Positions 1,983 to 62,989 of a DNA stretch of 64,000 nt are shown here, one piece after another. The notes under the pieces are model-generated. The model searched no databases, was not told where the DNA came from, and saw nothing but the letters and a program-made list of their open reading frames with translations. This DNA comes from a virus: the IMG/VR virus record IMGVR_UViG_3300023296_000994; one strand, given 5' to 3'. The position numbers were made by a program, and so were the translations under genes. How positions within the stretch are numbered: position 1 is the stretch's first letter; each line of letters opens with the position of its first letter.

Positions 1983-2033
1983 TTATAATCTCCGTTATGT
2001 TGTTTGTTCCTCTAATTAGAGTACTATTCACTA

Positions 2034-18290: not shown

Positions 18291-19448
18291 TTATCCTAAG
18301 TATATACCAAGTGGAATTCGACCTAAAGTATCTTGTTGAAATTCAGATATATCTTTTTGCTGTTCCATTGTATTTCTACTTGAAGCAGCTTCTAAATCTT
18401 CTCTCAATTGAGCTACAAGATTTTCCTTTTCAGTTGCGCCTTCTGTACGAAGTGTATCACCGTCAAGCGTTACATCAGCCCCTGGAATAGGAATAGAACT
18501 ATACTTACTTCTTATGTTACCTAATAATTCTTTAACTAACGCAACTGTATACTTACGTATCCATTGTTTTCCAGGGTCATTTATTTGAGAGTATACCATG
18601 TTATCATATGGCACATTCGAATAGTCTGATATTTCACCTTGACCGCCTGTTGGTCCGAATGGATTTGACCGGTCACTGTTAACTATATAATGGAACCAAA
18701 GATCGTAATTTGATGTACTTGTTGGTCGCGGGAATATAGTTACTTGATTATTTTTTATATTGAAACTAAAAGCAGATCGTCTAATTGTATCATTAAATTC
18801 AATAGACTGCATTCTTAGTAAGTCATCATACATCGGCATCATTAAATAATTAACTGCGGGACTAAATTGCCCCCAACCGAATCCCGATAGCATTTGAGAT
18901 GTTCCTTGGCCGGAGCCCATATATGGGTCAAAGAATCGTGTTATAGCAGGCGATGCTTCATGAAACACACGTTTAACTTCTATTCTATTTCCACTTTCCG
19001 ATACATCGGCCCAAAGTGCCTGTAGGTCATAGGTCTGTTTACCACCCACCACGTTGATTGAGCCGCTCTTATACGTGACATCTCCCCCAGAACCACCTTC
19101 ACTACCATAAGTTTTACTAATGTCTATAATACGTGACAGGTTAGGTGTTATGTTTCTATGAGTTAGATTGGAACCGGTTGATGCACCCTTTAAATTCAAT
19201 AGGTTTTCACGTATATTAAATTGATTGACTTGAGCACCATATTCATTTACAGCTTCCTCGAAGACAGCATAAAATGAACACGCCTGTAATTCAATATCTA
19301 CTATAGGATATCCAAGACGTTTTGCAGCCCAAACGGCCACGGCTTCGGCATCACATTGAAACGTAGTGTCACTATCATATAATCCAAACGGAGTATCTCC
19401 TGGATAAAATGATGAACTACCTGGCCAAATTGGAATTGATACACTCAC
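18291..19448 (-). CDS. Neck protein (gp13-like)
   Basis: RLGYPIVDIEL, WIRKYTVALVKELLGNIRSKY..IPIPG.DVTLDG. Confidence 0.8.
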   Translation of the reverse strand: MSVSIPIWPGSSSFYPGDTPFGLYDSDTTFQCDAEAVAVWAAKRLGYPIVDIELQACSFYAVFEEAVNEYGAQVNQFNIRENLLNLKGASTGSNLTHRNITPNLSRIIDISKTYGSEGGSGGDVTYKSGSINVVGGKQTYDLQALWADVSESGNRIEVKRVFHEASPAITRFFDPYMGSGQGTSQMLSGFGWGQFSPAVNYLMMPMYDDLLRMQSIEFNDTIRRSAFSFNIKNNQVTIFPRPTSTSNYDLWFHYIVNSDRSNPFGPTGGQGEISDYSNVPYDNMVYSQINDPGKQWIRKYTVALVKELLGNIRSKYSSIPIPGADVTLDGDTLRTEGATEKENLVAQLREDLEAASSRNTMEQQKDISEFQQDTLGRIPLGIYLG

Positions 19449-19675
19449 TTACTTAGTTCCTTATTAATTTTTTTGAGAATTGAATTTATTTGTTTAATCG
19501 ATTTTCCGCGTTTCACCGGAATAATGGTATTCGATGTTATATTTTTTTGTGCATTAAGATAGGATGATGCATTTCTTTTTTTAATAATACTGGACCTATC
19601 ATTTACACGGAGCCAATGACCCCGACACCAGGTACTATTTGTAGTACCACCACAACCACATTTACAAACATTCAT
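19445..19675 (-). CDS. Small basic protein with CxCGCG motif; possible homing endonuclease remnant
   Basis: MNVCKCGCGG....WCRGH; translationally coupled to both neighbours. Confidence 0.55.
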   Translation of the reverse strand: MNVCKCGCGGTTNSTWCRGHWLRVNDRSSIIKKRNASSYLNAQKNITSNTIIPVKRGKSIKQINSILKKINKELSK

Positions 19676-20073
19676 TAATACGTTACCTCTTTGGATAGTT
19701 TTATTTTTCCTTCTAATATTCTGGATACATATTCACAATTACCAGACCCACTATATATTTCTATATCATAGTATGCTCTATCGAACGTGAATTGACTGGA
19801 TGAATACGCCGATATATATACACCTATACTACCAGATGTTTTAGGTAATGTTGCTGATGCTGATGTAGGGGTTAAATTTAATCCCGTACCACATGTAGTT
19901 AAAGAAGATGATAAACTTGCGTACAAGTTCGAACCTTTCTTAGAATCTCTGATTTGCATCCTAGCTTCATAGTCAGTAAGGTCAATAGCGGACCCTGTTG
20001 AATCTTTGTAATCGATTCTAAAGTCTACTGTAGTACCTTGTTCTATTATGAATGTATAGTTTCCTGCTGCCAT
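19675..20073 (-). CDS. Small beta-sandwich virion protein
   Basis: IEQGTT, IDLTDYEARMQIR, YYDIEI, RILEGKI.LSKEVT. Confidence 0.7.
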   Translation of the reverse strand: MAAGNYTFIIEQGTTVDFRIDYKDSTGSAIDLTDYEARMQIRDSKKGSNLYASLSSSLTTCGTGLNLTPTSASATLPKTSGSIGVYISAYSSSQFTFDRAYYDIEIYSGSGNCEYVSRILEGKIKLSKEVTY

Positions 20074-20164: not shown

Positions 20165-21823
20165 TTAAACAGTATCTAAGCCACCGATATATATTTTCCC
20201 AAAAAATTCCGGACGGACTACCTTTTTCGCGTAACGTGTCATAACCCCTTTACGTGGTGTAAAGTTAGTTGGGTCATATACAAGAGGAGTCATAATCAAT
20301 GGAATATATGGAGCATAAACTGCACCTGTTTCCAAGAATTGTGCACCACGGAATCCCATTAATAGAACATTGTCTAAGAAATATGGATTCTTGTATACAG
20401 TGAATCTATTGGCCAACGAACCAACCTTAGTAACACCCATTGCGTATGTTGTAGCTGTACCATCTGTAGTAGCTGCATATCCAGGAATAGATTCCAAGAT
20501 AGTTGATACTTCAGGTGAAACTACAATAAAGTTAGCGTTTCCTCTCATGGTAGACTGGTAAATCTTGTTACTAATCTTCTGTACTTTAGTACCAAGAGTT
20601 TGATACCATGTTTGTTGTGTGTAAGCCGCTGCTGCCCCAACCGAAGTTGCTGCTGCCGATGCGCCTGTACCACTTAGAGTGAAACCTAAATCTGCTGACC
20701 ATTGGTCGATGTGCAATGCTGCTTGTTCAATCATTGACAAGATTTCCAAGTCAATTTCCATAGCAACATATTCTGAAAGCATTGAAGTTAATTCAGCTTC
20801 AGCATCGATACTGTGATAAGCGTTAAGGTCTTGAGCGAATTCTGGTGACCAAACAACTTTCAACTTACGTGTCTTAGCTATGATAGCTTCTTGACGTAGT
20901 TCAACGTTGATTTCTGGAATGTTTAAGTTCGTACCAGATGTTGGACCTTGAATTGGATCAGAATCTTCGAAATCGCCACGTGAGTAAGCGTTACGAGTAT
21001 CGTTGAAATAAGTAACAGTTACCGAACTTGCTTGAACAGCGGCACCGAGTGCTTGTGTAGTGAAGAACGATGCAGACACAGCGTTAGCTTGGTTGTATGT
21101 TCTATTTCCACTTGCGTCAGTAACGAAGTTATAAGTAGGTAAGTTTGTTGAATCAACGATGATTGACCCACTAACAACAACGAAGTGTTGTACAGCGTTC
21201 ACATCTACATCGGTGCTAAGCGCACTTAGAGGAAGTGAAATCTTAGCGATAAGTCCACCGGCTACTGATGCTGACAATGCAGCGTCAAACCCAACTTCAT
21301 CCCATGATGCAGATGCAGCGGTAGTAACGGTTACAGCACTAGCGGTTACAGCCTTAAGCGAATAACCACCTTTACCTTTTCCATACAAACCACCTGAAGG
21401 CGTTGATGATGCACTGGTGTTACCCATGATATCAGCACCTTGTGTGAATCTACTACCGTCTTGTGTAGTACCGTATTTGAAATCCAAATAGAAAATTAGA
21501 CCTGAAGGCAAGTTCATCGGTTGAACCGAAACGAATTCTTTAGCACTAATTTGGCCGAAAATACGTCTAACAAGCGGAAGGGCTACACCATTCCAATCTT
21601 CTTTAGAGTTACTTTCACCTGCATTAGTAGTAGATGCTTCATACATCAACTGACGGGCCTGGTTTTCTAATAGAATAGCGGTATTATGCTTTTCATATTC
21701 AGCATCGATACCTTCCAATAGACCCGATTGAGCCCATTTGTCAACGTATGCACGTGTTTGTTCACGTTGAGCGCGAAACGTTTTGTTTGAGTCTTGTAAG
21801 AGCTCTGAAATATTCTTATTCAT
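20165..21823 (-). CDS. gp23: Major capsid protein (T4 gp23-like)
   Basis: AILLENQ, LPLVRR, VSVQPM..PSGLIF, AKTRKLK..W..E.AQDL.AYH.IDAEAEL, YAPYIPL, FTPRKGVMTRY. Confidence 0.97.
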   Translation of the reverse strand: MNKNISELLQDSNKTFRAQREQTRAYVDKWAQSGLLEGIDAEYEKHNTAILLENQARQLMYEASTTNAGESNSKEDWNGVALPLVRRIFGQISAKEFVSVQPMNLPSGLIFYLDFKYGTTQDGSRFTQGADIMGNTSASSTPSGGLYGKGKGGYSLKAVTASAVTVTTAASASWDEVGFDAALSASVAGGLIAKISLPLSALSTDVDVNAVQHFVVVSGSIIVDSTNLPTYNFVTDASGNRTYNQANAVSASFFTTQALGAAVQASSVTVTYFNDTRNAYSRGDFEDSDPIQGPTSGTNLNIPEINVELRQEAIIAKTRKLKVVWSPEFAQDLNAYHSIDAEAELTSMLSEYVAMEIDLEILSMIEQAALHIDQWSADLGFTLSGTGASAAATSVGAAAAYTQQTWYQTLGTKVQKISNKIYQSTMRGNANFIVVSPEVSTILESIPGYAATTDGTATTYAMGVTKVGSLANRFTVYKNPYFLDNVLLMGFRGAQFLETGAVYAPYIPLIMTPLVYDPTNFTPRKGVMTRYAKKVVRPEFFGKIYIGGLDTV

Positions 21824-21844
21824 TATGAATAATTCTCCTGTTTT

Positions 21845-22681
21845 TTAGATTAGACCTGCAAGCTTTTTCATGCGGTCTGAAAAATCGTTACTTTCTGTAA
21901 TGATTTCTTTTGGTTTTGTTGAGGCAATCGGCTTAGACGCGAGGCCTTCAGCGATTTTAACTTTCTTTGATGGTGCTTTGGACATCGATTGAGATAGTGT
22001 TTTGTACACCAACTTAATTTCTTTAAGTGTATCAGCGTCATCAAAGTTTTCGATTATTCTCATCTTTTGACTTTCATCAAGATTATGTAATCTAAACAAC
22101 TTATTAGAGAACAATAATTTAGCATTTAGAATGTTTACTTCGTTAAGTGTATCTTTCAATGTTCTGATTGTGTCGTATGCTTCTTGCAAGTCAGTTTCCA
22201 TCGTCGCAGTTTCATTACTTTCATCTACAGAATCATCTTCGGCCAATTCGCGAAGGATTTCATCTAAATCCAATTCATCGTCTTCGTCATCGCTTTCTTC
22301 ATCAGCATCATCTTCAACGTCAGATTCATGTACTGTGGCTACATCTTCAGCTTCTTCAAGCTCACGGATAATAGATTCAAGTTCTAAATCAGAATCGTCA
22401 TCGTCTTCTGCTGGCTTTGAATCTTCCTTTTCATCATCTTCGTCATCAGATTCATTTACTTCGGTAACATCTTCTGCTACTTCTGTAGTTTCATCTAATT
22501 CAAGATCATCATCTTCTAAATCTTCTACATCATCATCATCCATTTCGTTCAAATGTGCTGAAATCATGTCTTTGATTTTTGGTGAAAAAGTTTCTTCTAA
22601 TACTAATTTTGCGTTTGCGATTGCAGTTTCTCTAACAGCTTTAGCGTCAGCAATTGCTTCTTTTAAAAGGTCTTTTGACAT
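21845..22681 (-). CDS. Prohead scaffold/core protein
   Basis: Directly upstream of the capsid gene; acidic middle, coiled coil, C-terminal RMKKLAGL. Confidence 0.8.
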   Translation of the reverse strand: MSKDLLKEAIADAKAVRETAIANAKLVLEETFSPKIKDMISAHLNEMDDDDVEDLEDDDLELDETTEVAEDVTEVNESDDEDDEKEDSKPAEDDDDSDLELESIIRELEEAEDVATVHESDVEDDADEESDDEDDELDLDEILRELAEDDSVDESNETATMETDLQEAYDTIRTLKDTLNEVNILNAKLLFSNKLFRLHNLDESQKMRIIENFDDADTLKEIKLVYKTLSQSMSKAPSKKVKIAEGLASKPIASTKPKEIITESNDFSDRMKKLAGLI

Positions 22682-22799
22682 TTTAAATTCTCCTTAATTT
22701 AATTTGGAAATATAGCTATTGAGAGCTACAATGGGATAAAAACTGCGATTGATATTATATAAAAAAATAATATATTTTACGCAGTGTACATATAAGTAT
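22682..22799 (-). promoter_or_regulatory. Promoter motif (ATACTTATA, 22791-22799) and structured 5' leader with SD AAGGAG for the scaffold-capsid operon
   Basis: Inverted repeats ACTGCG/CGCAGT (22742-22747/22780-22785), ATATTAT/ATAATAT (22752-22758/22767-22773) and TAGCT/AGCTA (22713-22717/22724-22728). Confidence 0.6.
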
Positions 22800-22818
22800 A
22801 CAGTATTTCTACAAACCC

Positions 22819-23103
22819 TTAATCATTGGCAAGTAATACAATATACGAATCAGACCAGCAAGTAGACTTTTTTCTGTCTAATTTAATGCGGTCAGCGTCA
22901 CATTTCTGATAGAATACTGCTCTATTGTTTCGTTCCCTTTTAGATGCAGATTTCTTTTCATAGTATGACTTCTTTTTTAATTTTGTAAATATGTCGCTTT
23001 CTTTTGAATTGCGCTTCCATATTTTTAATGCGGTATCTAATCCGCCGGTTGGTACACCAACTGAGTTGGAATTACCATATGTGTTATAACTTTTGTATTT
23101 CAT
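22819..23103 (-). CDS. rpsU: Phage-encoded ribosomal protein bS21 homolog
   Basis: V.V..GGLDTALKIWKRNSKESDIFTKLKKKSYYEKKSASKR matches the bS21 pattern (ALR.FKR....G...E.R.R.YYEKPS..R). Start reassigned to the ATG at 23103. Confidence 0.8.
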   Translation of the reverse strand: MKYKSYNTYGNSNSVGVPTGGLDTALKIWKRNSKESDIFTKLKKKSYYEKKSASKRERNNRAVFYQKCDADRIKLDRKKSTCWSDSYIVLLAND

Positions 23104-23131
23104 ATTTTTATACTTTTTGTATTTTATTATT

Positions 23132-24136
23132 TTAAAATCCGACTGATATACTATCTTCTTTGCCGTCAACCCAACGTATACCAATACTAAGTAATGATTT
23201 TAAATCGCTGGATGCCAGGCGGCCACCTCTTATACCGGTATCGATGACTACAATATGTCCGTGAATACCATCAAATAAATCAAAATCTTTATTGTTGTAA
23301 AATAGCTTTACTATTTTTTTAGCTTTTGTTTGTGCTTTTGCTGGTAATTCATTAAGAGATACTTGGGATGCTTCATTAAGTATATCCTTAAGAGTTGGTA
23401 ATAATTTATCCATAGATTCAACGGTTATGTTCTTATCTTTTAAATGTTTCATTAGTTCTATCTTCGTATGTTTATTTCTAAGTTCCATGTAATCACCTTC
23501 GTAATCTACAAAATAAAGCTTTTGGGATGCTCTATCCCACCAAATATAATCATTACCAGGCATATACATTTTTGAAAATGACTTTTCTAGTTTGATTTTT
23601 TGCATTCCCTTTAAAAACTTCTTAGTATCTGATGTGGGAGTGGCTTCGATTAAATTGGCCAACAAAATATTATTTGATTCCTTAATTGGCGTCCATACAC
23701 CTTTATTTACATCAAAATCTACTTTTGGAAAAAATGTAGTTTTAGTTATTAGCTTTTTACCTCTTGGTTCTGTTTGCTTAACCTTATACCCTTTATTGGT
23801 AAAATCTAAAATTTCAGCAGAATAGCCATCCAAATGCTTATGCTTAAATTTATCACCTATATCTATTTCTGATAAATTGGATTTTTTATTAATAGATTCT
23901 TTTAACTTAAACTTAGATATAAATTCACGCTCATATTCATTTCCTGGTTTACCAGACAACGCCGATGAAAAATCCATTTTGGCCATAGCTCTTCCCTTTT
24001 TGTGAGGTCCGTTTACTATATAGCTAAATAGTGCTTCAGCATCCAGATTATTATCAACTATAAATTTATTAACAGCTGTAACTCTAGTTGCAGTCATATC
24101 AGCTATGTGTTTCACAAATCTACTATTAGGTTTCAT
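23132..24136 (-). CDS. Hypothetical multi-module protein; possible internal head polyprotein
   Basis: Short modules separated by LKES/LSE/IKES/LIEA/ILNEA/LNE motifs. Confidence 0.65.
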   Translation of the reverse strand: MKPNSRFVKHIADMTATRVTAVNKFIVDNNLDAEALFSYIVNGPHKKGRAMAKMDFSSALSGKPGNEYEREFISKFKLKESINKKSNLSEIDIGDKFKHKHLDGYSAEILDFTNKGYKVKQTEPRGKKLITKTTFFPKVDFDVNKGVWTPIKESNNILLANLIEATPTSDTKKFLKGMQKIKLEKSFSKMYMPGNDYIWWDRASQKLYFVDYEGDYMELRNKHTKIELMKHLKDKNITVESMDKLLPTLKDILNEASQVSLNELPAKAQTKAKKIVKLFYNNKDFDLFDGIHGHIVVIDTGIRGGRLASSDLKSLLSIGIRWVDGKEDSISVGF

Positions 24137-24771
24137 TATTTAGTACTCGTTGGTATTGAACATTGGCAAGTTAATTCACATAATATGTCTGACACCAATG
24201 TATTTATTTTTAAATATCGATCAGTTGCGGAAGATACTACAGATTCAGATATACCATTTGGTGCCATAAATGCACCATGAGTAGATGGATTACTTACGAA
24301 ATCCCAACACACAAGGTCAAAATCATCTTTAACAGTTACCGTATCTTGTCGGCCAGTAGCTTCAACCGAACCCATTCCTCTGGAACTAATACCAAGTGCT
24401 ACTTGACTTTTCAATAGTTCTCTTAAAATATTTCCGGATGGAGTTGACAGTACTTCAACTTTACCTATAACATCATTACCTTCCCACCATATATTTCTAA
24501 ATATATGGGATACGTTTTTTAGATTAACTACCGATGATTCCGGATGGTCAAGTTCACCGAGTGCACGATTTTCTTTTATTTCTCTACCAATATATTTGAT
24601 AACTTCACGCTCTAATATTCGCTTAGGATATACCCTACCGTTTTGGTTAGGAGCTTCAGCACGTTGGATTACGCCAGTTACTATAACCTTACCATTATTT
24701 TTTTGCTCTGACTCCAACACCATTGCGGGAGATATTTCAAAGGTAGTATAATCAATTAATAAAGTTTTCAT
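24136..24771 (-). CDS. gp21: Prohead maturation protease (T4 gp21-like)
   Basis: NQNGRVYP, ALGELDHP, VSH, TPSG, GISSRGMGS, DFVSNPS. Likely start is MKTLLIDY at 24771 (ATGA overlap). Confidence 0.95.
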   Translation of the reverse strand: MKTLLIDYTTFEISPAMVLESEQKNNGKVIVTGVIQRAEAPNQNGRVYPKRILEREVIKYIGREIKENRALGELDHPESSVVNLKNVSHIFRNIWWEGNDVIGKVEVLSTPSGNILRELLKSQVALGISSRGMGSVEATGRQDTVTVKDDFDLVCWDFVSNPSTHGAFMAPNGISESVVSSATDRYLKINTLVSDILCELTCQCSIPTSTK

Positions 24772-24905
24772 GGTGTTTTCCATACAGATCGTTTTACATA
24801 TAAATCAAAAAAAACTTCCGCTACTTCCTTTCGTATTATAGCTTGGATTCTTTTTATATCCTTACTTGTCAGTTCTTCTACAATATGAGTTTTCTTTGAC
24901 TTCAT
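24768..24905 (-). CDS. 45-aa hypothetical protein (MKSKKTHIVEELTSKDIKRIQAIIRKEVAEVFFDLYVKRSVWKTP)
   Basis: Not in the ORF track. Fills the gap exactly and is ATGA-coupled to the protease start. Confidence 0.7.
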   Translation of the reverse strand: MKSKKTHIVEELTSKDIKRIQAIIRKEVAEVFFDLYVKRSVWKTP

Positions 24906-26554: not shown

Positions 26555-26597
26555 GAAGGTCTACCTTATGTAAGTATACTCTGATATAAATATAGTG

Positions 26598-28370
26598 TTA
26601 TACTTTTTCCAGTATATTGTCTTCGTTTAACATTCCACCTATTTTCTTGTCATCTGATTTTTTATTAAACAATGATTTTGCTATATATCGTTTTTCAGCT
26701 TCACTTATAGAGCGGTCTTTGTTTTTTGCATCCCTTGCCCGTGTTTCATCACCCACTGGGTCTCTGCCACGCGCAGAATCTTGAGTGCCAAACTTAGGGC
26801 CTTCTTTTGGTCTACCACCGAAATCAGTATCATCATTAGGTGTATCGGTTGGGACCGGTGTGGCTGATGTGTCATCTTTAGAAGGATCCATGCCTTCATT
26901 TTCAATTGAAGTTAGTATAAACTTACGTTTTGTATCTTCAACTACATTGGCCTTTTCTTTGGTAATATCATCATCTGATAATTTCCATATATTTTCATAT
27001 ATCCATTTTTCAGACAATAGTTTATTATCACGGAGCGATTGTGCCAAATCAGTTTTTTGTGACCACAATTCAATCATTTCTTGTTCGTGAATTGTAGATG
27101 AGTTTGTCAAATTCAATTCAAAGTCAACCAAATCAGCATCTTTGTATCCCTGAGAATACAAATGTACTATAGCAACTTTGGTTAATTCACTTACCATAAT
27201 TCGTTGAATACGCTCGATGGTTCTTGCAAATCGAACATCCATTGCAGCTAAAGTTGCTTTACCGTCAACACCTTCCTCATATCCAATAAATGCCTTTGGT
27301 ATTTTAAGAGCCGCAAACATTTTTTCTTTTAGATAATTTATGTCATCAATACCACTCCATTCCATTCCAGGAAGAGTATCTATTTCGGTACCTGTTTGAC
27401 CGCCACGTACTGGAAGATAATAGTCTTCCATCATATTTGATAAATTAAACTTAAGGTCGTATTGGCCTGTATTTTTATCTATGTATGGGGCTTTCTTTGT
27501 TTGATTAATAATATTTTGCATGTGGGTATCCACTTCATTAGGAGGGATATTACCAATGTCAATTTTAAATATTCGCTTTTCGGGAGCTCTCATAATTCTA
27601 TGAATCATCATTGAATCTTCCATCAATGTGAGCTGCTTCCATATTTTTCTGGCCGGTTCTACCATAGATTTACCATATGGTAAAAAATTGGCGTCTGATA
27701 GTAATCTAAAATGTGCTACTTCATAGTTTTCAAATCTACGTTGTGACTGTACAAGTGACCTACCCATACCGCCGCCGGCTTGGCCGCCAATAGTTGGGTC
27801 TTGTGTAAACCTAACATATTCAGGGTTATTTGGATCTAAGTCTTCTTCCCTAAGCATTTCATATGTTGAAATTGGAATTACATTAATAATACCAAGTTCT
27901 TCTACTATTTCTAATTTCAAATAAAAATCACCATACTTACACATGTTTCTACACCAGGGATATAGATTGAATTCAATATTCATTATATTATAAAATAGAT
28001 TATTTAACGTTTCTTCTATTTTACTATTCGAACTTTTTATAGTTAGAATATCACCAAATTCATCTCTAAGTGTAGATTCTTCTGAATATATGTCAAGAGC
28101 CGATGATATGATAGGATCTTGATCCATAGTTTCATAGTCACTAAACAAAATTAATCGTTGTGTATGATAATTAGATTTTTGATTATATCCAAGAGCCTGC
28201 GAACTTTGATGTAATCGATTATATCTGTCAACTAATCTATTGGTGGCTAGCTTATCGGTAGCCTGGACTTTATTAATATCAACTACCTGGAGACCCTCTT
28301 TTCCTTTCACCACCAGAGTTGATGTTGAAAACATTGTTTCGAGCCTACCAAAAAAAGTTTTATCTACCAT
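26598..28370 (-). CDS. gp20: Portal protein (T4 gp20-like)
   Basis: LMEDSMMIHRIMRAPEKRIFKIDIGN, EDYYLPVRGG..GTEIDTLPG, ALKIPK, RFARTIERIQ. Confidence 0.95.
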   Translation of the reverse strand: MVDKTFFGRLETMFSTSTLVVKGKEGLQVVDINKVQATDKLATNRLVDRYNRLHQSSQALGYNQKSNYHTQRLILFSDYETMDQDPIISSALDIYSEESTLRDEFGDILTIKSSNSKIEETLNNLFYNIMNIEFNLYPWCRNMCKYGDFYLKLEIVEELGIINVIPISTYEMLREEDLDPNNPEYVRFTQDPTIGGQAGGGMGRSLVQSQRRFENYEVAHFRLLSDANFLPYGKSMVEPARKIWKQLTLMEDSMMIHRIMRAPEKRIFKIDIGNIPPNEVDTHMQNIINQTKKAPYIDKNTGQYDLKFNLSNMMEDYYLPVRGGQTGTEIDTLPGMEWSGIDDINYLKEKMFAALKIPKAFIGYEEGVDGKATLAAMDVRFARTIERIQRIMVSELTKVAIVHLYSQGYKDADLVDFELNLTNSSTIHEQEMIELWSQKTDLAQSLRDNKLLSEKWIYENIWKLSDDDITKEKANVVEDTKRKFILTSIENEGMDPSKDDTSATPVPTDTPNDDTDFGGRPKEGPKFGTQDSARGRDPVGDETRARDAKNKDRSISEAEKRYIAKSLFNKKSDDKKIGGMLNEDNILEKV

Positions 28371-28385
28371 GTTTTTATTTTTATT

Positions 28386-30407
28386 TTATAATAGCCACTT
28401 CAAGCTTTCTTCGTTTCCGTTCACATTCATATTCAATGAATTATGAGCATTTGCATTGTTGCCGGTGTAAACGCCCGATGGGCCACCTACTTTCTGAAAT
28501 AATCTAAGTGAATTTTTATTGAGTTCTATGCCGTCATTACGAAGTTTAAGTGCATAGTCTCTGATATATAATCCTATTGACCATGCCATTGTTAGGTCAT
28601 CATTATACCCACGTTGAGCTTCACATCTTGATCCTTTCCAAATAAACATGTACCATTCATCAACTAATCGTTGAGATTTGATAATACATGATTTTTCTCT
28701 ACTATACATATCAAGTTTTGATATCAAAAGCGGGCGGGTTTTGCCGGACGTTGTAAATCCTGGCGTCATTTGCGCCTTATCTTTTATATCATATCCTTTT
28801 TCCAATTGTACCGCGGCGTCCGTAACTCCTTCGTGTCTGTACGTGTAATATAAATTATTATATTCTCTGTCGATTGCAGGTTGTATCGCTGCCCAACCAA
28901 TATTTGCATTTTCAATAACCAAAAGCGCATTATTGTATTCGGTGGCCACGTTGACCATCATATTACCGAATTCTTTTGTTCCAATTAGCCCCTTATATTC
29001 AGCTACCTGCTCACACGCTTCAACATCTACTACGTGAAACGCAGAATAATCTGATGCGTCACCCCTTGCAACGTCAGCTACCAACATATAATCGCGTGAG
29101 TAATCGGGGTCTTTCCATACCCACAATTCACCGCCAGGACCTCTTTTTTCTTTTGGTTCGGAAACTTGGTTATCTTCATACCACTTTATTAATTCACCAC
29201 GTATAAGTGTGTTACCAGATGAAATAAAATCACAATTATGAGAAACCACACCATCCACATTAAAGATATTACCATTATCTACTTCAACTATATCATATAA
29301 TTCAATGGATTTATGTATCAATTGTATGTTTACTACGGTTACATATTGTGTATCCGGTACATCGGAATCAATTAGAGATCCTACTTCCAATTTATTTGCT
29401 AATATTTCCGCGCCATTATACATAAATGGATGCGTAGTAGAACATTTTAAAACGATATTATTGGATAATGATATAACGTAATGAGAAGCTTTTTCTAATT
29501 TACGGATACCAGTAAATGGCTGATATCCACTTGGCGTTGATATTTCATACTGTAAGTTCTGTTTAAATATCATATTTGTATTATAAAGTTCCGATAATGT
29601 AATATAAAATTCTTCTTTGGTTTTAGAATCACGTACTTTAATTCGGCTTTCGCCCCACAAACAATCGCATTCTTGAGCTGCCGCTCTTTCACCTAATAAT
29701 TCGTCTTGTTCGTCTCTCCAAGATTGGTCTCTATCTGGGTGTACTGACCAATGGAGTCTAAGTGAATTAAACTGGGCTTTGGTTGAACCCTCTTCTGAGA
29801 ACTTCCATTGCTTATGAAACCAATTACCAGTACCGTTTGGTGTTGATAATGCAATACACCTACCACCAGTAGCCAATGTTTGTTGCGCTGCAATCCAAAT
29901 ATCATCGATATAATCAATGAACGCTGCTTCATCAAAAATAAGAAGCGAAAGCGCTTCCGATCTTCCTGATTGCGGAGTCGATGAAATGGCTTTTATTTGA
30001 GACCCGTTTTTGAATCTAAGCGACAATTTATTATCTGTATCCGTTTGTTCTTTTAACCAAGATGGTAAATAGTCATACATGACACGAACTTTAGTAACCA
30101 TGTTTTTTGCTACATCCCTTGATGTAGCAATTACAAGTACGTTAAAGTCTTCTTTGAATGTCATTTGGTGTAATGCGTATCCAGCAACAAGCGTAGATAT
30201 ACCAAGCTGCCTAGACTTTAATATAATTTCATATCTATGAGATTGAATATCATCTAATGCTTTTTCTTGAAATGGATAAAGATTAAACAGCATTTTGCCC
30301 TGTGTTGGGTGCTGAATATGACAATACTTACGCATAAAGTATATTGGATCAGCTGCACACTTTTTGTACTCCGATGCTATAAGCTGTTTTAAATTAGGAT
30401 TGCTCAT
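28386..30407 (-). CDS. gp17: Terminase large subunit containing a mini-intein
   Basis: LYPFQ, KSRQLGIST, LLIFDEAAF, STPNG, ADVARG..SDYSA, IENAN, NDDLTMA. Confidence 0.95.
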   Translation of the reverse strand: MSNPNLKQLIASEYKKCAADPIYFMRKYCHIQHPTQGKMLFNLYPFQEKALDDIQSHRYEIILKSRQLGISTLVAGYALHQMTFKEDFNVLVIATSRDVAKNMVTKVRVMYDYLPSWLKEQTDTDNKLSLRFKNGSQIKAISSTPQSGRSEALSLLIFDEAAFIDYIDDIWIAAQQTLATGGRCIALSTPNGTGNWFHKQWKFSEEGSTKAQFNSLRLHWSVHPDRDQSWRDEQDELLGERAAAQECDCLWGESRIKVRDSKTKEEFYITLSELYNTNMIFKQNLQYEISTPSGYQPFTGIRKLEKASHYVISLSNNIVLKCSTTHPFMYNGAEILANKLEVGSLIDSDVPDTQYVTVVNIQLIHKSIELYDIVEVDNGNIFNVDGVVSHNCDFISSGNTLIRGELIKWYEDNQVSEPKEKRGPGGELWVWKDPDYSRDYMLVADVARGDASDYSAFHVVDVEACEQVAEYKGLIGTKEFGNMMVNVATEYNNALLVIENANIGWAAIQPAIDREYNNLYYTYRHEGVTDAAVQLEKGYDIKDKAQMTPGFTTSGKTRPLLISKLDMYSREKSCIIKSQRLVDEWYMFIWKGSRCEAQRGYNDDLTMAWSIGLYIRDYALKLRNDGIELNKNSLRLFQKVGGPSGVYTGNNANAHNSLNMNVNGNEESLKWLL
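29235..29663 (-). mobile_element. 143-aa cis mini-intein in the terminase (no endonuclease domain)
   Basis: QECD|CLWGESRIKV...CSTTHPF...LYDIVEV...FNVDGVVSHN|CDFISSG; removal restores QECDCDF. Confidence 0.92.
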
Positions 30408-30415
30408 ATTTCTAT

Positions 30416-30928
30416 TTATTCAGCTGCTTCAGCTGCTCTGGCTGCTCTACGTCTACGTCTACGTGTTGGCTTTTTATTAAAATCTTCGTCTGTTAGTTCC
30501 ATTTCCATATCTATTTTATCATACACAGACACGTTATTATTCACAGCGTGTGATTTTTCATAGGTTCTACCTGCAAAATATGCACCGTAGACTGTTAACA
30601 ATAACGTTTGATATATTGGCTTATAAGCATCATCCAACGTAAATTGACCTACATTGCCGTCAAAAAACGTAATGAATACAAATACAACCGTTAAGAAAAT
30701 CAATGCAACGGGCCGTATGTTTTTTGATAGTTTGTTATCGGATGTCATATCGGCTTCCCAACGAGCAGTTACGTTGTTGGCAGCTTGTGCCTCCGCATTC
30801 AATACCATCTTCTTAAATTCTGATTTGACTTGTAGTTTTTCTTCTTTAGTAGTAACTACATCGTCTATAATACCACCAACCTTTTCAATTAATTCTGAAC
30901 CAGCTGAGGTTAAAAGTCCTCCTAACAT
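30416..30928 (-). CDS. Putative holin (3TM/GTA holin-like)
   Basis: IIDDVVTTKEEK, RWEADM.SD..LSKNIRP, hydrophobic helices, AYFAGRTYEK; basic C terminus. Confidence 0.7.
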   Translation of the reverse strand: MLGGLLTSAGSELIEKVGGIIDDVVTTKEEKLQVKSEFKKMVLNAEAQAANNVTARWEADMTSDNKLSKNIRPVALIFLTVVFVFITFFDGNVGQFTLDDAYKPIYQTLLLTVYGAYFAGRTYEKSHAVNNNVSVYDKIDMEMELTDEDFNKKPTRRRRRRAARAAEAAE

Positions 30929-31025
30929 ATCATATCTCCTATTTATTATTGTTTCGTTTGAATGAATAATTCAATGATTACACTTATTATAACCATTACA
31001 AATATCCATCCAAGTGCATTCATTA

Positions 31026-31937: not shown

Positions 31938-32477
31938 TTAAACTTTTGGTTTACCGAATACGGTTTCTTTTATTTTTTTACCACCGGTTAATATACGAAT
32001 ATATTTTCTTCTATCACCGGTTAGCTTTAGATCTGATTTCGGAAATAATTTTTGTAGAAATGATTCGTCTTCTATATACGAAACACTTGATTTATATAAT
32101 ACATGTTCTAAGGCATCTGAGGCTTCTACCCAATAACCAGGCTTAGTTAATAACTTTTTAAGTTCAACTAATACTTTATCAATTGCCTTACGAGATCCAT
32201 CATGGCCGATACCTTGTATTTTACTTCCTTTCCACGGTTCACCTGATCTATGATTACGGTAAAATATAGTTGCATCTATATCAGGATCATTATCAATGTC
32301 AATTGAATGCCAGTCCGGTTCAGCCAAATCACGCTTGGTGTTAATAAAAGATACCTTTGGAGTTTTACTATAAGCTGTTTGCACAACTGATATTAAATCA
32401 TCCGAATATTTGTCGGAATCCACTTGCATCCATTTGTTCTTTGGAATTTCGTTTAATATGTCTATTAATTTAATCAA
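31938..32477 (-). CDS. Hypothetical protein with capsid-targeting-like leader MIKLIDILNE
   Basis: Ten-residue leader ending in L-N-E. Confidence 0.7.
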   Translation of the reverse strand: MIKLIDILNEIPKNKWMQVDSDKYSDDLISVVQTAYSKTPKVSFINTKRDLAEPDWHSIDIDNDPDIDATIFYRNHRSGEPWKGSKIQGIGHDGSRKAIDKVLVELKKLLTKPGYWVEASDALEHVLYKSSVSYIEDESFLQKLFPKSDLKLTGDRRKYIRILTGGKKIKETVFGKPKV

Positions 32478-33642
32478 AATTCATTAATCCTGCTATTTGA
32501 TTCACGGGGCCGAAGCTGCCGGTTAATTTATAAGTCTTACCATTGGATACAAATACCAATCCTTCGGATGGAATAATAGTATCAAATCCACCAATTGCTT
32601 TGATTCTAGCCAATTGCGTATCTATTCTTTTAAGTTTCTTTAAATCACCACCCTTTCGAACATCTGTAATTGCTTTGGCAACTTGATTGCGTATATTCTG
32701 TACAGCCTTATCTGGATTAACAGCGAGGAAACTCTCTACGTTTTTAAGTACGTCTACGCCGAGTTCAAAAAACAATACTTCAAATGGAAACATATTTTTC
32801 TTTACTTGATCTGAATGTGACCCTTTATCAAATTCAATTGCTTTCGCAAGAACGGCTTCATCAGGTATATTTTGGCGATTTAACCTAAAACTTTTGTCAA
32901 AGAAGGCCCAGCGATTTACCAATCCTACTTTAATATTATTGTCAAGAGCACCAAATTTAGATTCTATGAAAGCTTCCCACCAAGCTTGATGATATTCAGC
33001 GAGGGTTGACGTATCTAACAATTTAAATTTCTTTCTGAGAGTATCTACTTTAGAAATATAATACGAACTCTTTTCGGCGAAGTCTTTATTTTTAAGAAGC
33101 TTCAGTACATTGGGACCAATGATAGCAAAGTTTTTTTGTAAATTCTTATTTACCTGCTTAATCATACCGGCCAACATACGAGCGCCATCCTTTACTTCGC
33201 CATTAGCTTGGCTACCAGAATACTGTAATACATTGTGGAATTGAAGATATGGTGCATCATATGAAATAACATTTTCAGATGGTGGATAAATGATTTCCAT
33301 GTTTACCCAATTACCACCGTTATCAAATATTTTCTGTCGTTGCTTATCATTTATGGATGATATGGCCGAAGATAAATCTTTCATAGCAAGAGTAAAAGCT
33401 TTTTCTATATTACCACGTCCTGCGAATTTTGCAGCAATTGCTTTATAGTCCATACCACCACGTTTTAAGTCACCGGTATTTCTTGCTGCCATTAACTTAC
33501 CATTAGCCCAAGTAATAAATAAATTTTGACCATCAGTATTATGCACTAAAATACCATTAGCATAATAACACTTGCGGCCTTCAACTTGAATATCATATCT
33601 AGTTTGTAGCTTATTTACTTTCGTGATAGATTTTATTTTCAT
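32470..33642 (-). CDS. C-terminal half of a fractured gene: split intein IntC plus ligase-like nucleotidyltransferase C-extein
   Basis: MKIKSITK...YDIQVEG...YYANGILVHN|TDGQNLFITW; the extein has ARN, EII, and EGLVF....TYKLTG. Confidence 0.88.
   Translation of the reverse strand: MKIKSITKVNKLQTRYDIQVEGRKCYYANGILVHNTDGQNLFITWANGKLMAARNTGDLKRGGMDYKAIAAKFAGRGNIEKAFTLAMKDLSSAISSINDKQRQKIFDNGGNWVNMEIIYPPSENVISYDAPYLQFHNVLQYSGSQANGEVKDGARMLAGMIKQVNKNLQKNFAIIGPNVLKLLKNKDFAEKSSYYISKVDTLRKKFKLLDTSTLAEYHQAWWEAFIESKFGALDNNIKVGLVNRWAFFDKSFRLNRQNIPDEAVLAKAIEFDKGSHSDQVKKNMFPFEVLFFELGVDVLKNVESFLAVNPDKAVQNIRNQVAKAITDVRKGGDLKKLKRIDTQLARIKAIGGFDTIIPSEGLVFVSNGKTYKLTGSFGPVNQIAGLMNFD
33538..33642 (-). mobile_element. 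Split intein C-fragment (35 aa), +1 residue Thr
   Basis: Block F (YDIQV) and block G (LVHN) present; typical basic MKIKSI start. Confidence 0.92.
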
Positions 33643-34465
33643 AATTAATCCGTATAAATTTACAATTCAATTCATTCATTATAATATATTGACGTTGAAT
33701 ATTTTTATCTTTTAATTTACCGTTTCTGAAATGATATTTTTCATCATACTCAAAAACTGTATTAGTTTCTTTACTATACCCATCCACAAAATAGCCACAA
33801 ATTTGAAATTCGCCGCCATTTTCAGCGTGTTGTATATCAGTTATTCCGAGTTCTTTAGCTTTGGCTTCAAGAATCGAAATTGAATTTTTGTTATAACAAT
33901 ATTGTTTACATTTATCCAATGTATTACGATATTTTATATTACTTTCTCTCATTTTCAGTTTGGTAACTGTTGAATGTTTATGTCCTAACGTAGAATGGCC
34001 GTTTTCGTCACGCCAAACTCGAAGTTTTTTCTTTATTTTATCAATAATCACAGGAGCCTTTCTAACATTATCAACACCATATTTAGTTAATACTGTTTTG
34101 TTTTTCGTATGGTATGGTATAGTATTTTTACTTAATGGATTTACTGCCCCATACTTTTCTAAATTAGTAGAGTTTATTCGATCTCTATATAATTTCATAT
34201 TATTAGATTCTTTAACCGATCTAGTTGGGATTTCAAATTTACATAGTGCTTTAATAATTGGGTTTACCCCAATTCCGATTTCTTGTGAAATTTGATTAGC
34301 AGCCTTACCAACATTAACATATTCATTATACAGAAATTCTTTAGTTAAGATTCTATTTTTGTATAATTTATATTGATTACAGCTCTTATAATGATTTGAT
34401 ATTTGTTGTTTATTAATCACACCTATTTTTGCAGAACAATATGTACATTTCCAAAGTTTATTCAT
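33611..34465 (-). mobile_element. Free-standing homing endonuclease (Vsr-like/PD-(D/E)xK type) between the split-intein halves
   Basis: N-terminal CxxC..H...C, KYGxxN repeats, NUMOD3-like GHKHSTVTKLKMRES, C-terminal GYFVDGY......FEYDEKYH...RQ...CKFIRI; own promoter motif at 34472-34480. Confidence 0.8.
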
Positions 34466-34504
34466 ATTATATATAAATATCTAATTTCCGAAAAACGGAT
34501 GGTA

Positions 34505-34801
34505 TCAAATAACAGTTAAATCATCTCCAAGTATTAATTCATCTGCTCGAACAAATCCTCTATTCTTTATATATATTTTATGGTTAGGTGTTACTTGTAT
34601 AATACTATCATCATCAAGTACAATTTCAAGCCATTCATCAGAATCACCGTTATTAAATTTATTAGTTACAGGTCTATACTCAATAGAATCTGTATCCGAG
34701 TCATATGATAATACATCATCTGTTATACCACTGTCAACAAAATCAGAAATCTTCATTCGGCCGTTGTTTTTCAACTGTAATATCGCGTCTGGATATATAC
34801 A
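34505..34801 (-). mobile_element. Split intein N-fragment (98 aa)
   Basis: Block A CIYPDAIL and block B IQVTPNHKIY, ending VRADELILGDDLTVI-stop; acidic. Confidence 0.92.
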
Positions 34802-44223: not shown

Positions 44224-44255
44224 CAAATATAAGAAAAAAGAATCGATTATCCAAA
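44224..44255 (-). promoter_or_regulatory. Bacteroidota primary-sigma-type promoter (TTTG-N20-TATATTTG)
   Basis: Matches the -33 TTTG / -7 TAnnTTTG consensus with a 20-nt spacer; ends 3 nt before the primase ATG. Confidence 0.65.
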
Positions 44256-44714
44256 CATTTCTTTACTATTTTCAGAAATAATTGATTTTTCAGGTGAAGT
44301 GTGCTTAACACCAATAAATTTACGGCTACCTATACTTGAATTATAATATTCCCTCGTACCATTTGAAAGTAATGACGTAAGTACATTTAATTTGTGCTGG
44401 TAGTTTTCTTCTAAATAATTAACTTCACCTTTACTAAATCCAATATGTAGTATTTGAAATGAAAACTTATCAATACCAATCGAATCAATATCAGCCTTAA
44501 GTTCATCGGACGATGATGTATATTCTTTCCAATTACTTTCAGACCAAGTAACGCGTTTTCTTTTTTTCCCTTTTAACGGTGGACGCGATAACTTCCGAGT
44601 AAAATACTTTCTACCTACGTATTTTCTATCGGTAATAGTATTTGTAATTAAATAAACAAACCCATGGGCTCCGGGCGGAACATCAGTAAATGCCGTACTA
44701 TTAAACATCCACAT
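44247..44714 (-). CDS. GIY-YIG nuclease
   Basis: GFVYLITN....KYVGRK, ESNWKEYTSSS, FQIL, E, YYN..I. Confidence 0.85.
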   Translation of the reverse strand: MWMFNSTAFTDVPPGAHGFVYLITNTITDRKYVGRKYFTRKLSRPPLKGKKRKRVTWSESNWKEYTSSSDELKADIDSIGIDKFSFQILHIGFSKGEVNYLEENYQHKLNVLTSLLSNGTREYYNSSIGSRKFIGVKHTSPEKSIISENSKEMFG

Positions 44715-59488: not shown

Positions 59489-59499
59489 ACATATAAGTA

Positions 59500-62965: not shown

Positions 62966-62989
62966 TACATATAAATATAAAGTCAGAAT

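What the first reader, a model, noticed from the sequence alone, without database searches (positions are those of the whole stretch)
20165..23103. Phage bS21 paired with strong Shine-Dalgarno sites on high-demand late genes
Seen: a bS21 homolog sits just upstream of scaffold and capsid. AGGAG/GGAG occurs 7-11 nt before the scaffold (22681), capsid (21823), sheath (1982) and holin (30928) starts, while many other genes have only A/T-rich or nearly absent leaders. Established: Bacteroidota ribosomes largely ignore SD sequences because bS21, bS18 and bS6 sequester the anti-SD, and phage bS21 genes have been reported next to structural genes. Inference: the divergent phage bS21 replaces the host protein and frees the anti-SD, creating a translation switch that favours SD-bearing virion mRNAs.
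Basis: partly seen in the sequence, partly recalled or inferred. Interest (0 to 1): 0.78.

Follow-up and report, generated by a model that had tools for sequence, protein, structure and literature searches.

The report
Phage bS21 beside SD-led capsid genes
A marine T4-like phage carries its own copy of ribosomal protein bS21 just before its scaffold and capsid genes, which are among its few genes with classic ribosome-binding sites, but the protein looks like a faithful copy of its probable host's version, so the proposed translation switch stays untested.

Summary
Window 22819-23103 (-) encodes a real bS21 (NCBIfam TIGR00030, 40.6 bits against a cut-off of 28.95). It lies in the late head operon, directly upstream of the scaffold and Gp23 capsid genes. 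AAGGAG, AGGAG and GGAG sit 7-11 nt before the scaffold, capsid, sheath and holin starts.

Across all 64 genes, Shine-Dalgarno (SD) strength equals background. A small real subset exists: 5 of 64 genes at -7 kcal/mol or stronger against about 2% expected, with a G peak at -12 to -10.

- A Bacteroidota host is likely but not proven.
- The protein is not divergent where it matters. Phe64 aligns with F. johnsoniae Tyr54, the residue that helps hold the anti-SD, and all 7 subfamily members have an aromatic there.
- In the two closest relatives only the scaffold SD is kept. The capsid SD decays and the holin SD is present in one of the two.
- Across the clade, bS21 type tracks SD usage as host mimicry predicts.

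Best reading: a late-made host-type bS21 replacement, plus inherited strong ribosome-binding sites. The SD switch remains possible (about 0.2). I found no paper that proposes it. Other first readers noted this stretch twice, without follow-up.

The parts
22819..23103 (-). Phage bS21 gene, 94 aa. Core helices 22-35 and 38-43, plus a long helix 51-81. About 20 phage-specific N-terminal residues. A C-terminal tail KKSTCWSDSYIVLLAND.
   Evidence: NCBIfam TIGR00030 at 40.6 bits, above the 28.95 cut-off. Pfam S21 at 26.8 bits against 27. Subfamily profile against PDB bS21 chains, E=1.7e-8. AF2 model with mean pLDDT 71.
23104..23131 (-). A-rich leader of the bS21 gene, with no SD, running from the stop of the upstream gene.
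   Evidence: SD energy -0.6 kcal/mol. The leader is also SD-less in L002, L087, L003 and L039.
22791..22799 (-). Late-promoter motif ATACTTATA, 109 nt before the scaffold ATG. It heads the scaffold-capsid transcript.
   Evidence: The motif ATAYTTATA occurs 16 times on the coding strand, always between genes. No terminator-like site lies between bS21 and the scaffold gene.
22690..22695 (-). SD AAGGAG, 8 nt before the scaffold start.
   Evidence: Energy -8.2 kcal/mol. Conserved in nearly all relatives while the flanks vary, including the SD-poor L002 and L087.
21845..22681 (-). Acidic scaffold (prohead core) gene, 278 aa.
   Evidence: Position directly upstream of the capsid gene. N-terminus MSKDLLKEAIADAKA is shared across the clade. 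No Pfam or PHROG match.
21835..21839 (-). SD AGGAG, 11 nt before the capsid start.
   Evidence: Energy -7.4 kcal/mol. TAGGAGA or AAGGAGA sits 7-9 nt upstream in about 40 relatives. It is degenerate in the closest relatives L002 (AAGAG) and L087 (AAGAA).
20165..21823 (-). Major capsid protein, Gp23 family, 552 aa.
   Evidence: PF07068, E=2.6e-72.
24136..24783 (-). Prohead core serine protease (gp21-like).
   Evidence: PF03420, E=2.9e-33.
26585..26593 (-). Late-promoter motif heading the transcript that contains the protease and bS21 genes.
   Evidence: No further motif and no terminator-like site was found before bS21. The terminator scan covered 21700-24300 only.
1990..1993 (-). SD GGAG, 7 nt before the tail sheath start (gene 255-1982). 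The late promoter lies 51 nt upstream.
   Evidence: (-6.6 kcal/mol).
30936..30940 (-). SD AGGAG, 7 nt before the holin start (gene 30416-30928).
   Evidence: -7.3 kcal/mol. Holin by phrog_3427, E=2.3e-27. The SD is present in G009 and absent in G004.
19685..19689 (-). SD-like GAGGT before a 76-aa ORF. The ORF sits between this site and the head-tail adaptor gene (18291-19448).
   Evidence: -7.2 kcal/mol. In G004 the homologous AAGGAGGT (-12.5 kcal/mol) directly precedes the adaptor gene.

Best explanation
The ORF is a phage-encoded bS21 of the Bacteroidia type, carried by a marine T4-like phage that most likely infects a member of the Bacteroidota.

How it most likely works:
1. It is transcribed late, from the head-operon promoter, together with the protease.
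2. Ordinary SD-blind host ribosomes translate it from an A-rich leader that has no SD.
3. It then takes the bS21 site on host 30S subunits. It keeps the aromatic residue (Phe64, equivalent to Tyr54) and its neighbours, so it probably still helps hold the 16S 3' tail. It therefore acts as a replacement for the host protein.
4. That keeps ribosomes complete, or retunes them through the phage-specific N- and C-terminal extensions, while the bulk of virion protein is made.

The few strong SDs (scaffold, capsid, sheath, holin and a few others) are real ribosome-binding sites inherited from an SD-rich ancestry of this phage clade. In this lineage most have been lost, and only the scaffold SD is kept firmly.

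Shown: the identity of the gene, its place in the operon, the SD statistics and the pattern in relatives. Inferred: incorporation into ribosomes, the host, and any effect on which mRNAs are translated.
For: bS21 identity.

Aromatic residue at the Tyr54 position: a gap-free alignment to 7jil_z places F64, Y65 and Q66 on Y54, I55 and Q56. It is F or Y in 7 of 7 subfamily members.

Late operon context: promoter motifs and no terminator-like site.

Host clues:
- The closest cultured relatives by capsid and portal proteins are Flavobacterium phage immuto (48-53% aa identity) and Rhodothermus phage RM378.
- Overall SD strength equals background.
- The nearest relative, G004, has a permuted tmRNA (Rfam RF04321, 56 bits). 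Its ARAGORN tag GEYSYAVAA resembles the native Bacteroides tag GETNYALAA.

Inheritance of the SDs:
- The same syntenic bS21-scaffold-capsid block occurs in about 33 IMG/VR relatives and in Microcystis phage Mel-JY01.
- Most of these relatives have SD on 38-65% of genes.
- In the window's own lineage (window, G004, G009) SD falls to 17-18% of genes. The scaffold SD is kept in 3 of 3 and the capsid SD in 1 of 3.

Literature: phage bS21 beside structural genes, expressed late and keeping Tyr54, was read as mimicry (PMC9723584). A viral bS21 enters E. coli ribosomes (PMC6375957, as cited in PMC9976891).
Against: - The SD subset shows position-specific selection: a G peak at -12 to -10, and the scaffold AAGGAG conserved while its flanks diverge. 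That is hard to explain if every ribosome in the infected cell is SD-blind.
- Wild-type F. johnsoniae ribosomes need an SD stronger than -13 kcal/mol (PMC13000457). The phage's SDs are -6.6 to -8.2 kcal/mol.
- Flavobacterium phage immuto has no bS21 and no SD on any of its head genes. So bS21 presence and SD presence do go together within the nearest cultured comparison.
- The effect of the roughly 20 extra C-terminal residues on the platform pocket is unknown.
- The host is not proven.
Confidence: 0.45

Rival explanations
1. SD switch. The phage bS21 replaces the host protein but fails to hold the 16S 3' tail. For example, its longer helix and its STCWSD-Y tail may occupy or disturb the bS18/bS6 pocket. 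Late ribosomes would then gain a free anti-SD and favour the SD-led scaffold, capsid, sheath and holin mRNAs.
For: - Strong SDs are rare and fall on the most abundant virion and scaffold proteins. The G peak sits at the right distance from the start.
- The scaffold SD is conserved in 3 of 3 members of the SD-poor lineage while its flanks vary.
- The bS21 gene is itself SD-less, so unmodified ribosomes can make it.
- bS21-free immuto has no SDs.
- Short SDs work in F. johnsoniae only when the pocket is compromised or bS21 is absent (PMC13000457, PMC9976891).
- The C-terminal tail is conserved in P0001, P0002 and P0004.
Against: - The aromatic residue at the Tyr54 position is kept in 7 of 7 subfamily members.
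- The capsid and holin SDs are not conserved in the closest relatives.
- LR756508 has a syntenic bS21 without that aromatic residue, yet its leaders are SD-depleted.
- SD-rich relatives use SD in every genome region, so nothing in the clade points to a temporal switch.
- No structural or functional data exist.
Confidence: 0.2
2. The host is not SD-blind. The phage infects a marine bacterium that uses SD weakly. The SDs are then ordinary strong ribosome-binding sites on abundant proteins. The bS21 is a general ribosome-takeover or maintenance gene, as in pelagiphage and cyanophage examples.
For: - The window shows a real G peak at the SD position.
- The syntenic bS21 block occurs in phages with general SD use, including one deposited as a Microcystis phage.
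- No direct host link was obtained.
- Two-piece tmRNAs are, to my knowledge, typical of Alphaproteobacteria, some Betaproteobacteria and cyanobacteria.
Against: - Only about 18% of genes score -5.5 kcal/mol or stronger, against 12% in controls.
- The bS21 carries the Bacteroidia-type aromatic residue.
- The tmRNA tag of the nearest relative starts with GE, like the Bacteroides tag.
- The nearest cultured relative infects Flavobacterium.
Confidence: 0.2
3. The SDs are neutral relics. After a move from an SD-using host to an SD-blind one they no longer act and are simply decaying. The strongest ancestral sites, on the most expressed genes, survive longest. The bS21 is unrelated to them.
For: - The capsid leader runs AGGAG, then AAGAG, then AAGAA across the window, L002 and L087.
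- There is turnover between the window and G004.
- immuto, L022 and LR756508 have lost their SDs altogether.
Against: - The scaffold AAGGAG is invariant while its flanks differ.
- Strong SDs occur at different genes in sister genomes: G004 gene 48720 and the G009 holin. That suggests gains as well as losses.
- Strong SDs exceed the background expectation.
Confidence: 0.15

Closest known systems
bS21-encoding freshwater phages predicted to infect Bacteroidetes (Chen et al. 2022, ISME Commun, PMC9723584)
   Same: The bS21 gene lies inside the conserved head module (terminase, portal, protease, capsid). It belongs with late-expressed genes. An aromatic residue is kept at the Tyr54 position. The C-termini are divergent and clade-specific. 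A Bacteroidota host is inferred.
   Different: - There the bS21 gene is on the strand opposite the structural genes. Here it is on the same strand and in the same operon, between the protease region and the scaffold gene.
- Here the protein has N- and C-terminal extensions (94 aa) and very few relatives: 9 hits among 1.84 billion representatives.
- That paper did not analyse SD motifs on the phage genes.
F. johnsoniae bS21 and the rpsU autoregulation circuit (Jha 2021, PMC7797042; McNutt 2023, PMC9976891; Arpin 2026, PMC13000457; Naeem 2026, PMC13000453)
   Same: The two-helix bS21 core is shared. Phe64, Tyr65 and Gln66 align with Tyr54, Ile55 and Gln56, the residues that contact the 16S 3' tail. 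The idea that ribosome composition decides whether an SD is read comes from this system.
   Different: - The host rpsU has an extended SD stronger than -13 kcal/mol. The phage gene has none.
- The phage protein is 30 residues longer.
- The phage SDs are short (-6.6 to -8.2 kcal/mol) and sit on structural genes.
- No functional data exist for the phage protein.
Pelagibacter phage HTVC008M bS21 and other viral ribosomal proteins (Mizuno et al. 2019, PMC6375957)
   Same: A T4-like marine myophage that carries bS21. The viral protein can enter bacterial ribosomes.
   Different: No close sequence relationship. The window bS21 found no match in the phage collection by tblastn, and HTVC008M is not among the capsid matches.
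Microcystis phage Mel-JY01 (PP395634) and about 30 IMG/VR relatives with a syntenic 71-75 aa bS21
   Same: The same gene order: protease, one or two small genes, bS21, scaffold, Gp23 capsid. There is an SD before the scaffold and capsid genes.
   Different: - Their bS21 is short and very basic, and has Arg or Leu at the Tyr54 position.
- In most, the bS21 gene carries one of the strongest SDs in the locus (-9 to -14 kcal/mol in 22 of 26 loci with the 71-72 aa form). Mel-JY01 has only a weak one (-5.5).
- 38-65% of their genes have an SD.
Flavobacterium phage vB_FspM_immuto (MW353175)
   Same: The closest cultured relative by capsid (48% aa identity) and portal (53%). It has the same T4-like head module and PhoH.
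   Different: There is no bS21 anywhere in the complete 160-kb genome. There is no SD on any head-module gene, and the capsid and scaffold leaders are A-rich.

Membership tests
Ribosomal protein bS21 (Pfam PF01165 / NCBIfam TIGR00030) | Sequence match to the family model above its curated cut-off. | tested here: met
   TIGR00030 at 40.6 bits against 28.95. Pfam at 26.8 bits against 27, borderline. Subfamily profile against PDB bS21 chains, E=1.7e-8.
Ribosomal protein bS21 (Pfam PF01165 / NCBIfam TIGR00030) | Small basic protein with two alpha-helices joined by a short linker. | tested here: met
   The AF2 model has helices 22-35 (and 38-43) and 51-81, with pLDDT 82-95 in the core. Foldseek against the PDB gave no match, which is uninformative for so small and extended a protein.
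Ribosomal protein bS21 (Pfam PF01165 / NCBIfam TIGR00030) | Binds the 30S platform next to the 16S 3' end. | not testable with these tools
   This needs ribosome purification or cryo-EM.
Bacteroidia-type, anti-SD-sequestering bS21 (Jha et al. 2021) | Signature aromatic residue at position 54, which stacks on A1534. | tested here: met
   A gap-free HMM alignment to 7jil_z puts Phe64 on Tyr54. The residue is F or Y in 7 of 7 subfamily members. Chen 2022 reports one Phe54 case among phage proteins.
Bacteroidia-type, anti-SD-sequestering bS21 (Jha et al. 2021) | C-terminal part less basic than in other phyla. | tested here: inconclusive
   From the serine of the KPS-like motif onward, net charge is +4 over 43 residues. 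The type A relatives have +8 to +10 over 30 residues. The 20 extra residues make the comparison loose.
Bacteroidia-type, anti-SD-sequestering bS21 (Jha et al. 2021) | Actually holds the 16S 3' tail in the bS18/bS6 pocket. | not testable with these tools
   This needs a structure of host 30S carrying the phage protein.
Phage bS21 in a late structural module (Chen et al. 2022) | The gene lies among the terminase, portal, protease and capsid genes. | tested here: met
   The order is TerL, portal, two unknown genes and a 45-aa ORF, protease, one unknown gene, bS21, scaffold, capsid.
Phage bS21 in a late structural module (Chen et al. 2022) | The gene is on the strand opposite the structural genes. 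| tested here: not met
   It is on the same strand as all its neighbours.
SD-dependent translation regulon | SD enriched on a defined gene class and conserved in relatives. | tested here: inconclusive
   The scaffold SD is kept in 3 of 3 relatives, the capsid SD in 1 of 3 and the holin SD in 2 of 3. The sheath could not be checked. Strong SDs exceed background overall, p=0.009.

The most novel reading that the evidence does not exclude
In an SD-blind Bacteroidia host, the phage bS21 binds in place of the host protein, and its longer C-terminal helix and STCWSD-Y tail release the 16S 3' tail. This would create a late class of ribosomes that read short SDs and boost the scaffold and other head and tail mRNAs. 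It would be the first virus-encoded ribosomal protein shown to change the rules of start-site selection.
Probability: 0.2. Interest if true: 0.85.

Novelty: new member of a known kind. Interest (0 to 1): 0.5.

Why it matters
Bacteroidia ribosomes ignore Shine-Dalgarno (SD) sequences because bS21, bS18 and bS6 hide the anti-SD. Work from 2023-2026 shows that losing bS21, or weakening the pocket, switches SD reading back on. bS21 is the ribosomal protein most often encoded by phages, and what it does there is unknown.

This phage, its two close relatives and the bS21-free phage immuto form a compact natural test set. They share one head module. Some have bS21 and some do not. Some have an SD on the scaffold gene and some do not. 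The aromatic anti-SD contact is kept in the bS21 of this phage and its two close relatives.

A simple reporter experiment in F. johnsoniae would say whether phage bS21 preserves or breaks SD blindness. Either answer would settle an open question raised in PMC9976891 and PMC9723584.

Tried and rejected
- tblastn of the bS21 against the phage collection: no match.
- Pattern scans of IMG/VR with the window bS21, P0004 and P0005: nothing. P0003 gave L087.
- The word-indexed protein search returned only the query itself.
The contexts of P0004, P0005, P0006 and P0010 could therefore not be seen.
No bacterial-genome link was obtained.
- No whole genome is held for the window. The early-versus-late SD scan was limited to the 64-kb window plus the relatives' genomes.
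- Foldseek of the AF2 model against the PDB: no hit.
- PHROGs and Pfam left most SD-bearing genes unnamed.
- The Bacteroidetes -7 promoter motif TAnnTTTG touches intergenic DNA only 4 times, too few to use as a host marker.
- The ORF at 1-249 could not be shown to be the tail tube. The tube was therefore left out of the high-demand gene set.
It was repeated using references only.
- Rejected: that SD use in the SD-rich relatives is confined to late genes. G007 shows about 38% in all regions. G005 is lower only in one block of small genes.
Full report
**What is in the window.** All credible genes lie on the minus strand. In the direction of transcription the head module reads as follows:
- large terminase, 28386-30407
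- Gp20 portal, 26598-28370
- two unknown genes and a 45-aa ORF
- Gp21-type prohead protease, 24136-24783
- a 334-aa unknown gene
- the 94-aa ORF 22819-23103
- an acidic 278-aa scaffold, 21845-22681
- the Gp23 capsid protein, 20165-21823

The tail sheath is at 255-1982 and a holin at 30416-30928 (phrog_3427).

The 94-aa ORF is a bS21:
- NCBIfam TIGR00030 gives 40.6 bits against a cut-off of 28.95.
- Pfam gives 26.8 bits against 27.
- A subfamily profile matches solved bS21 chains at E=1.7e-8.
- The AF2 model shows the two-helix core, with the second helix running to residue 81 and a disordered tail at 82-94.

**The SD observation.** AAGGAG lies 8 nt before the scaffold start, AGGAG 11 nt before the capsid start, GGAG 7 nt before the sheath start and AGGAG 7 nt before the holin start. 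The bS21 gene has an A-rich leader and no SD.

I scored every one of the 64 starts against the 16S tail.
- The mean is -2.39 kcal/mol. Internal in-frame ATGs give -2.19 and random positions -1.91. The genome as a whole does not use SD.
- 5 of 64 starts reach -7 or stronger, against about 2% expected (p=0.009).
- G frequency rises to 0.25-0.28 at -12 to -10, from about 0.09 on either side.
- A small, real class of SD-led genes therefore exists.
- Scaffold, capsid and sheath are three of the seven strongest sites. The chance for three named genes is about 8e-4, by my hand calculation, and the set was chosen after seeing the data.
- The other strong sites precede a 331-aa unknown gene (59156), a 76-aa ORF (19675) and an ATPase-like gene (37560).

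**Transcription context.** The motif ATAYTTATA occurs 16 times on the coding strand, always between genes.
- One copy lies 109 nt before the scaffold ATG and another 51 nt before the sheath ATG.
- Most other copies lie 3-33 nt before a start, which leaves little room for an SD.
- bS21 is reached from the motif at 26585-26593.
- No terminator-like site separates bS21 from the scaffold gene.
- bS21 is therefore a late gene, as in PMC9723584.

**Host.** No genome is held for the window and no direct link was found. The indirect evidence points to Bacteroidota.
- The closest cultured relatives by capsid and portal proteins are Flavobacterium phage immuto and Rhodothermus phage RM378. One phage deposited as a Microcystis phage is also close.
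- The nearest relative, G004 (capsid 73% identical), has a permuted tmRNA (Rfam RF04321). Its predicted tag GEYSYAVAA resembles the native Bacteroides tag GETNYALAA.
- The bS21 has the Bacteroidia signature residue (see the next section).
- I put the probability of a Bacteroidota host at about 0.65-0.7.

**Is the phage bS21 divergent where it matters?** No.
- The subfamily profile aligns without gaps to F. johnsoniae bS21 (7jil_z). Phe64, Tyr65 and Gln66 fall on Tyr54, Ile55 and Gln56.
- Tyr54 stacks on A1534, and Ile55 touches the 3' tail (PMC7797042).
- All seven members of the subfamily have F or Y at this position.
- The new features are about 20 N-terminal residues and a C-terminal extension. 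The extension ends in a motif, K(K/R)STCWSD-Y, that is shared by three members. Its effect on the platform pocket is unknown.

**Relatives.** A capsid-based scan gave 70 IMG/VR loci. About 33 of them, plus Mel-JY01 and the huge phage LR756508, carry a bS21 at the same position on the same strand.

| bS21 type | Members | Residue at Tyr54 position | SD on the bS21 gene itself | Share of genes with SD |
|---|---|---|---|---|
| A: 71-72 aa, very basic | L008-like loci, G007 | Arg or Leu | -9 to -14 kcal/mol in 22 of 26 loci | 35-67% in the head-module loci; 38% over all of G007, evenly spread |
| B: long | L003/G005, L039 | no aromatic | none | 42% over G005, in two clear classes of leader |
| C: the window's type | window, L002/G004, L087/G009 | Phe or Tyr | none | 17-18% over the window and the G004 contig |
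| none | immuto (complete genome); L022 (incomplete contig) | not applicable | not applicable | SD-depleted |
| non-aromatic | LR756508 | no aromatic | none | no SD at all |

Sources by row:
- Type A.
- Type B.
- Type C.
- No bS21.
- LR756508.

This pattern is what host mimicry predicts. The phage bS21 looks like the host's, and the phage leaders follow the host's initiation rules. It gives no sign of a temporal switch.

**Conservation inside type C.**
- The scaffold SD is kept in all three genomes while the flanking bases differ.
- The capsid leader runs AGGAG (window), AAGAG (L002), AAGAA (L087).
- The holin SD is present in the window and G009 but not in G004.
- Orthologous leaders correlate in SD strength (Spearman 0.60 over 38 pairs). 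There is still turnover, including strong SDs that appear only in a sister genome.
- The "SD-bearing virion mRNAs" are therefore not a fixed set. The scaffold is the one firm case.

**Weighing the models.** Wild-type F. johnsoniae ribosomes initiate through the SD only when pairing is stronger than -13 kcal/mol. Weaker SDs work only when bS21 is missing or the pocket is compromised (PMC13000457). The phage SDs are -6.6 to -8.2 kcal/mol. If the host is a Bacteroidia member, a selected scaffold SD implies that some ribosomes in the infected cell have a free anti-SD. The sequence evidence, however, favours a protein that preserves sequestration.

My weights:
- Host-type replacement plus inherited ribosome-binding sites: 0.45.
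- The SD switch: 0.2.
- A host that is not SD-blind: 0.2.
- Neutral relic SDs: 0.15.

**Novelty.** Phage bS21 beside structural genes, late expression, Tyr54 retention and a Bacteroidota host are all published (PMC9723584, PMC6375957). The general idea of redirecting ribosomes to phage mRNA is in PMC7797042 and PMC9976891. Four full-text searches, two of them aimed at this question, found no paper that links phage bS21 to SD motifs on phage late genes. That link is a new and testable hypothesis, but it is not shown here. Other first readers noted the same stretch twice in this scan, without follow-up.

Noticed in passing
L008, L010, L027, L063 and about 20 other loci: the bS21 gene about 1.3-1.6 kb upstream of the capsid gene: In the 71-72 aa bS21 class, the phage bS21 gene carries one of the strongest SDs in its locus (-9 to -14.3 kcal/mol against a 15-nt 16S tail in 22 of 26 loci). 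This recalls the extended SD of Flavobacteriales rpsU, which underlies bS21 autoregulation. The hosts of these phages are unknown.
   Followed up: partly
L083:10152-10438 (G004, the closest relative): A phage-encoded permuted tmRNA (Rfam RF04321, 56 bits). ARAGORN predicts the tag GEYSYAVAA, which resembles the Bacteroides tag GETNYALAA.
   Followed up: partly
window 19445-19675 (-): A 76-aa Cys-rich ORF sits between an SD-like site and the head-tail adaptor gene, which here starts with GTG. In G004 the homologous AAGGAGGT directly precedes the adaptor gene, so the small ORF looks like an insertion that took over the ribosome-binding site.
   Followed up: partly
window, 16 sites, for example 22791-22799, 2034-2042, 62970-62978, 59492-59500: The late-promoter-like motif (TG)ATAYTTATA occurs only between genes: 16 of 16 copies, with none in 61.7 kb of coding sequence. 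Several copies lie 3-13 nt before an ATG, which implies leaderless or nearly leaderless late mRNAs.
   Followed up: partly
G005 (L075-L082), whole 145-kb genome: There are two sharply different kinds of leader in one phage. About 42% of genes have clear AGGAG-type SDs. Many others have pure A-rich leaders. A block of small genes at 10-30 kb has few SDs (7 of 38).
   Followed up: partly
window 32470-36817 (-): Intein N- and C-terminal splicing pieces end one gene and start another, with a 284-aa ORF between them (Pfam Intein_splicing). Another report in this scan already describes this as a split intein.
   Followed up: no
window 44247-44714 (-): A SegE-type GIY-YIG homing endonuclease (PF19835, E=4e-36) lies between a primase-like gene and PhoH.
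   Followed up: no
window 23132-24136 (-): The 334-aa gene between the protease and bS21 has no detectable ortholog in G004 or G009. Those genomes have different small genes at this spot, so it is a variable slot directly upstream of bS21.
   Followed up: no
L022:4797-7737: This relative has no bS21 at the syntenic site, and its leaders are strongly SD-depleted. Even so, its scaffold and capsid leaders keep the best remaining SD-like matches in the locus (AAGGA, -5.6 and -5.1 kcal/mol).
   Followed up: no
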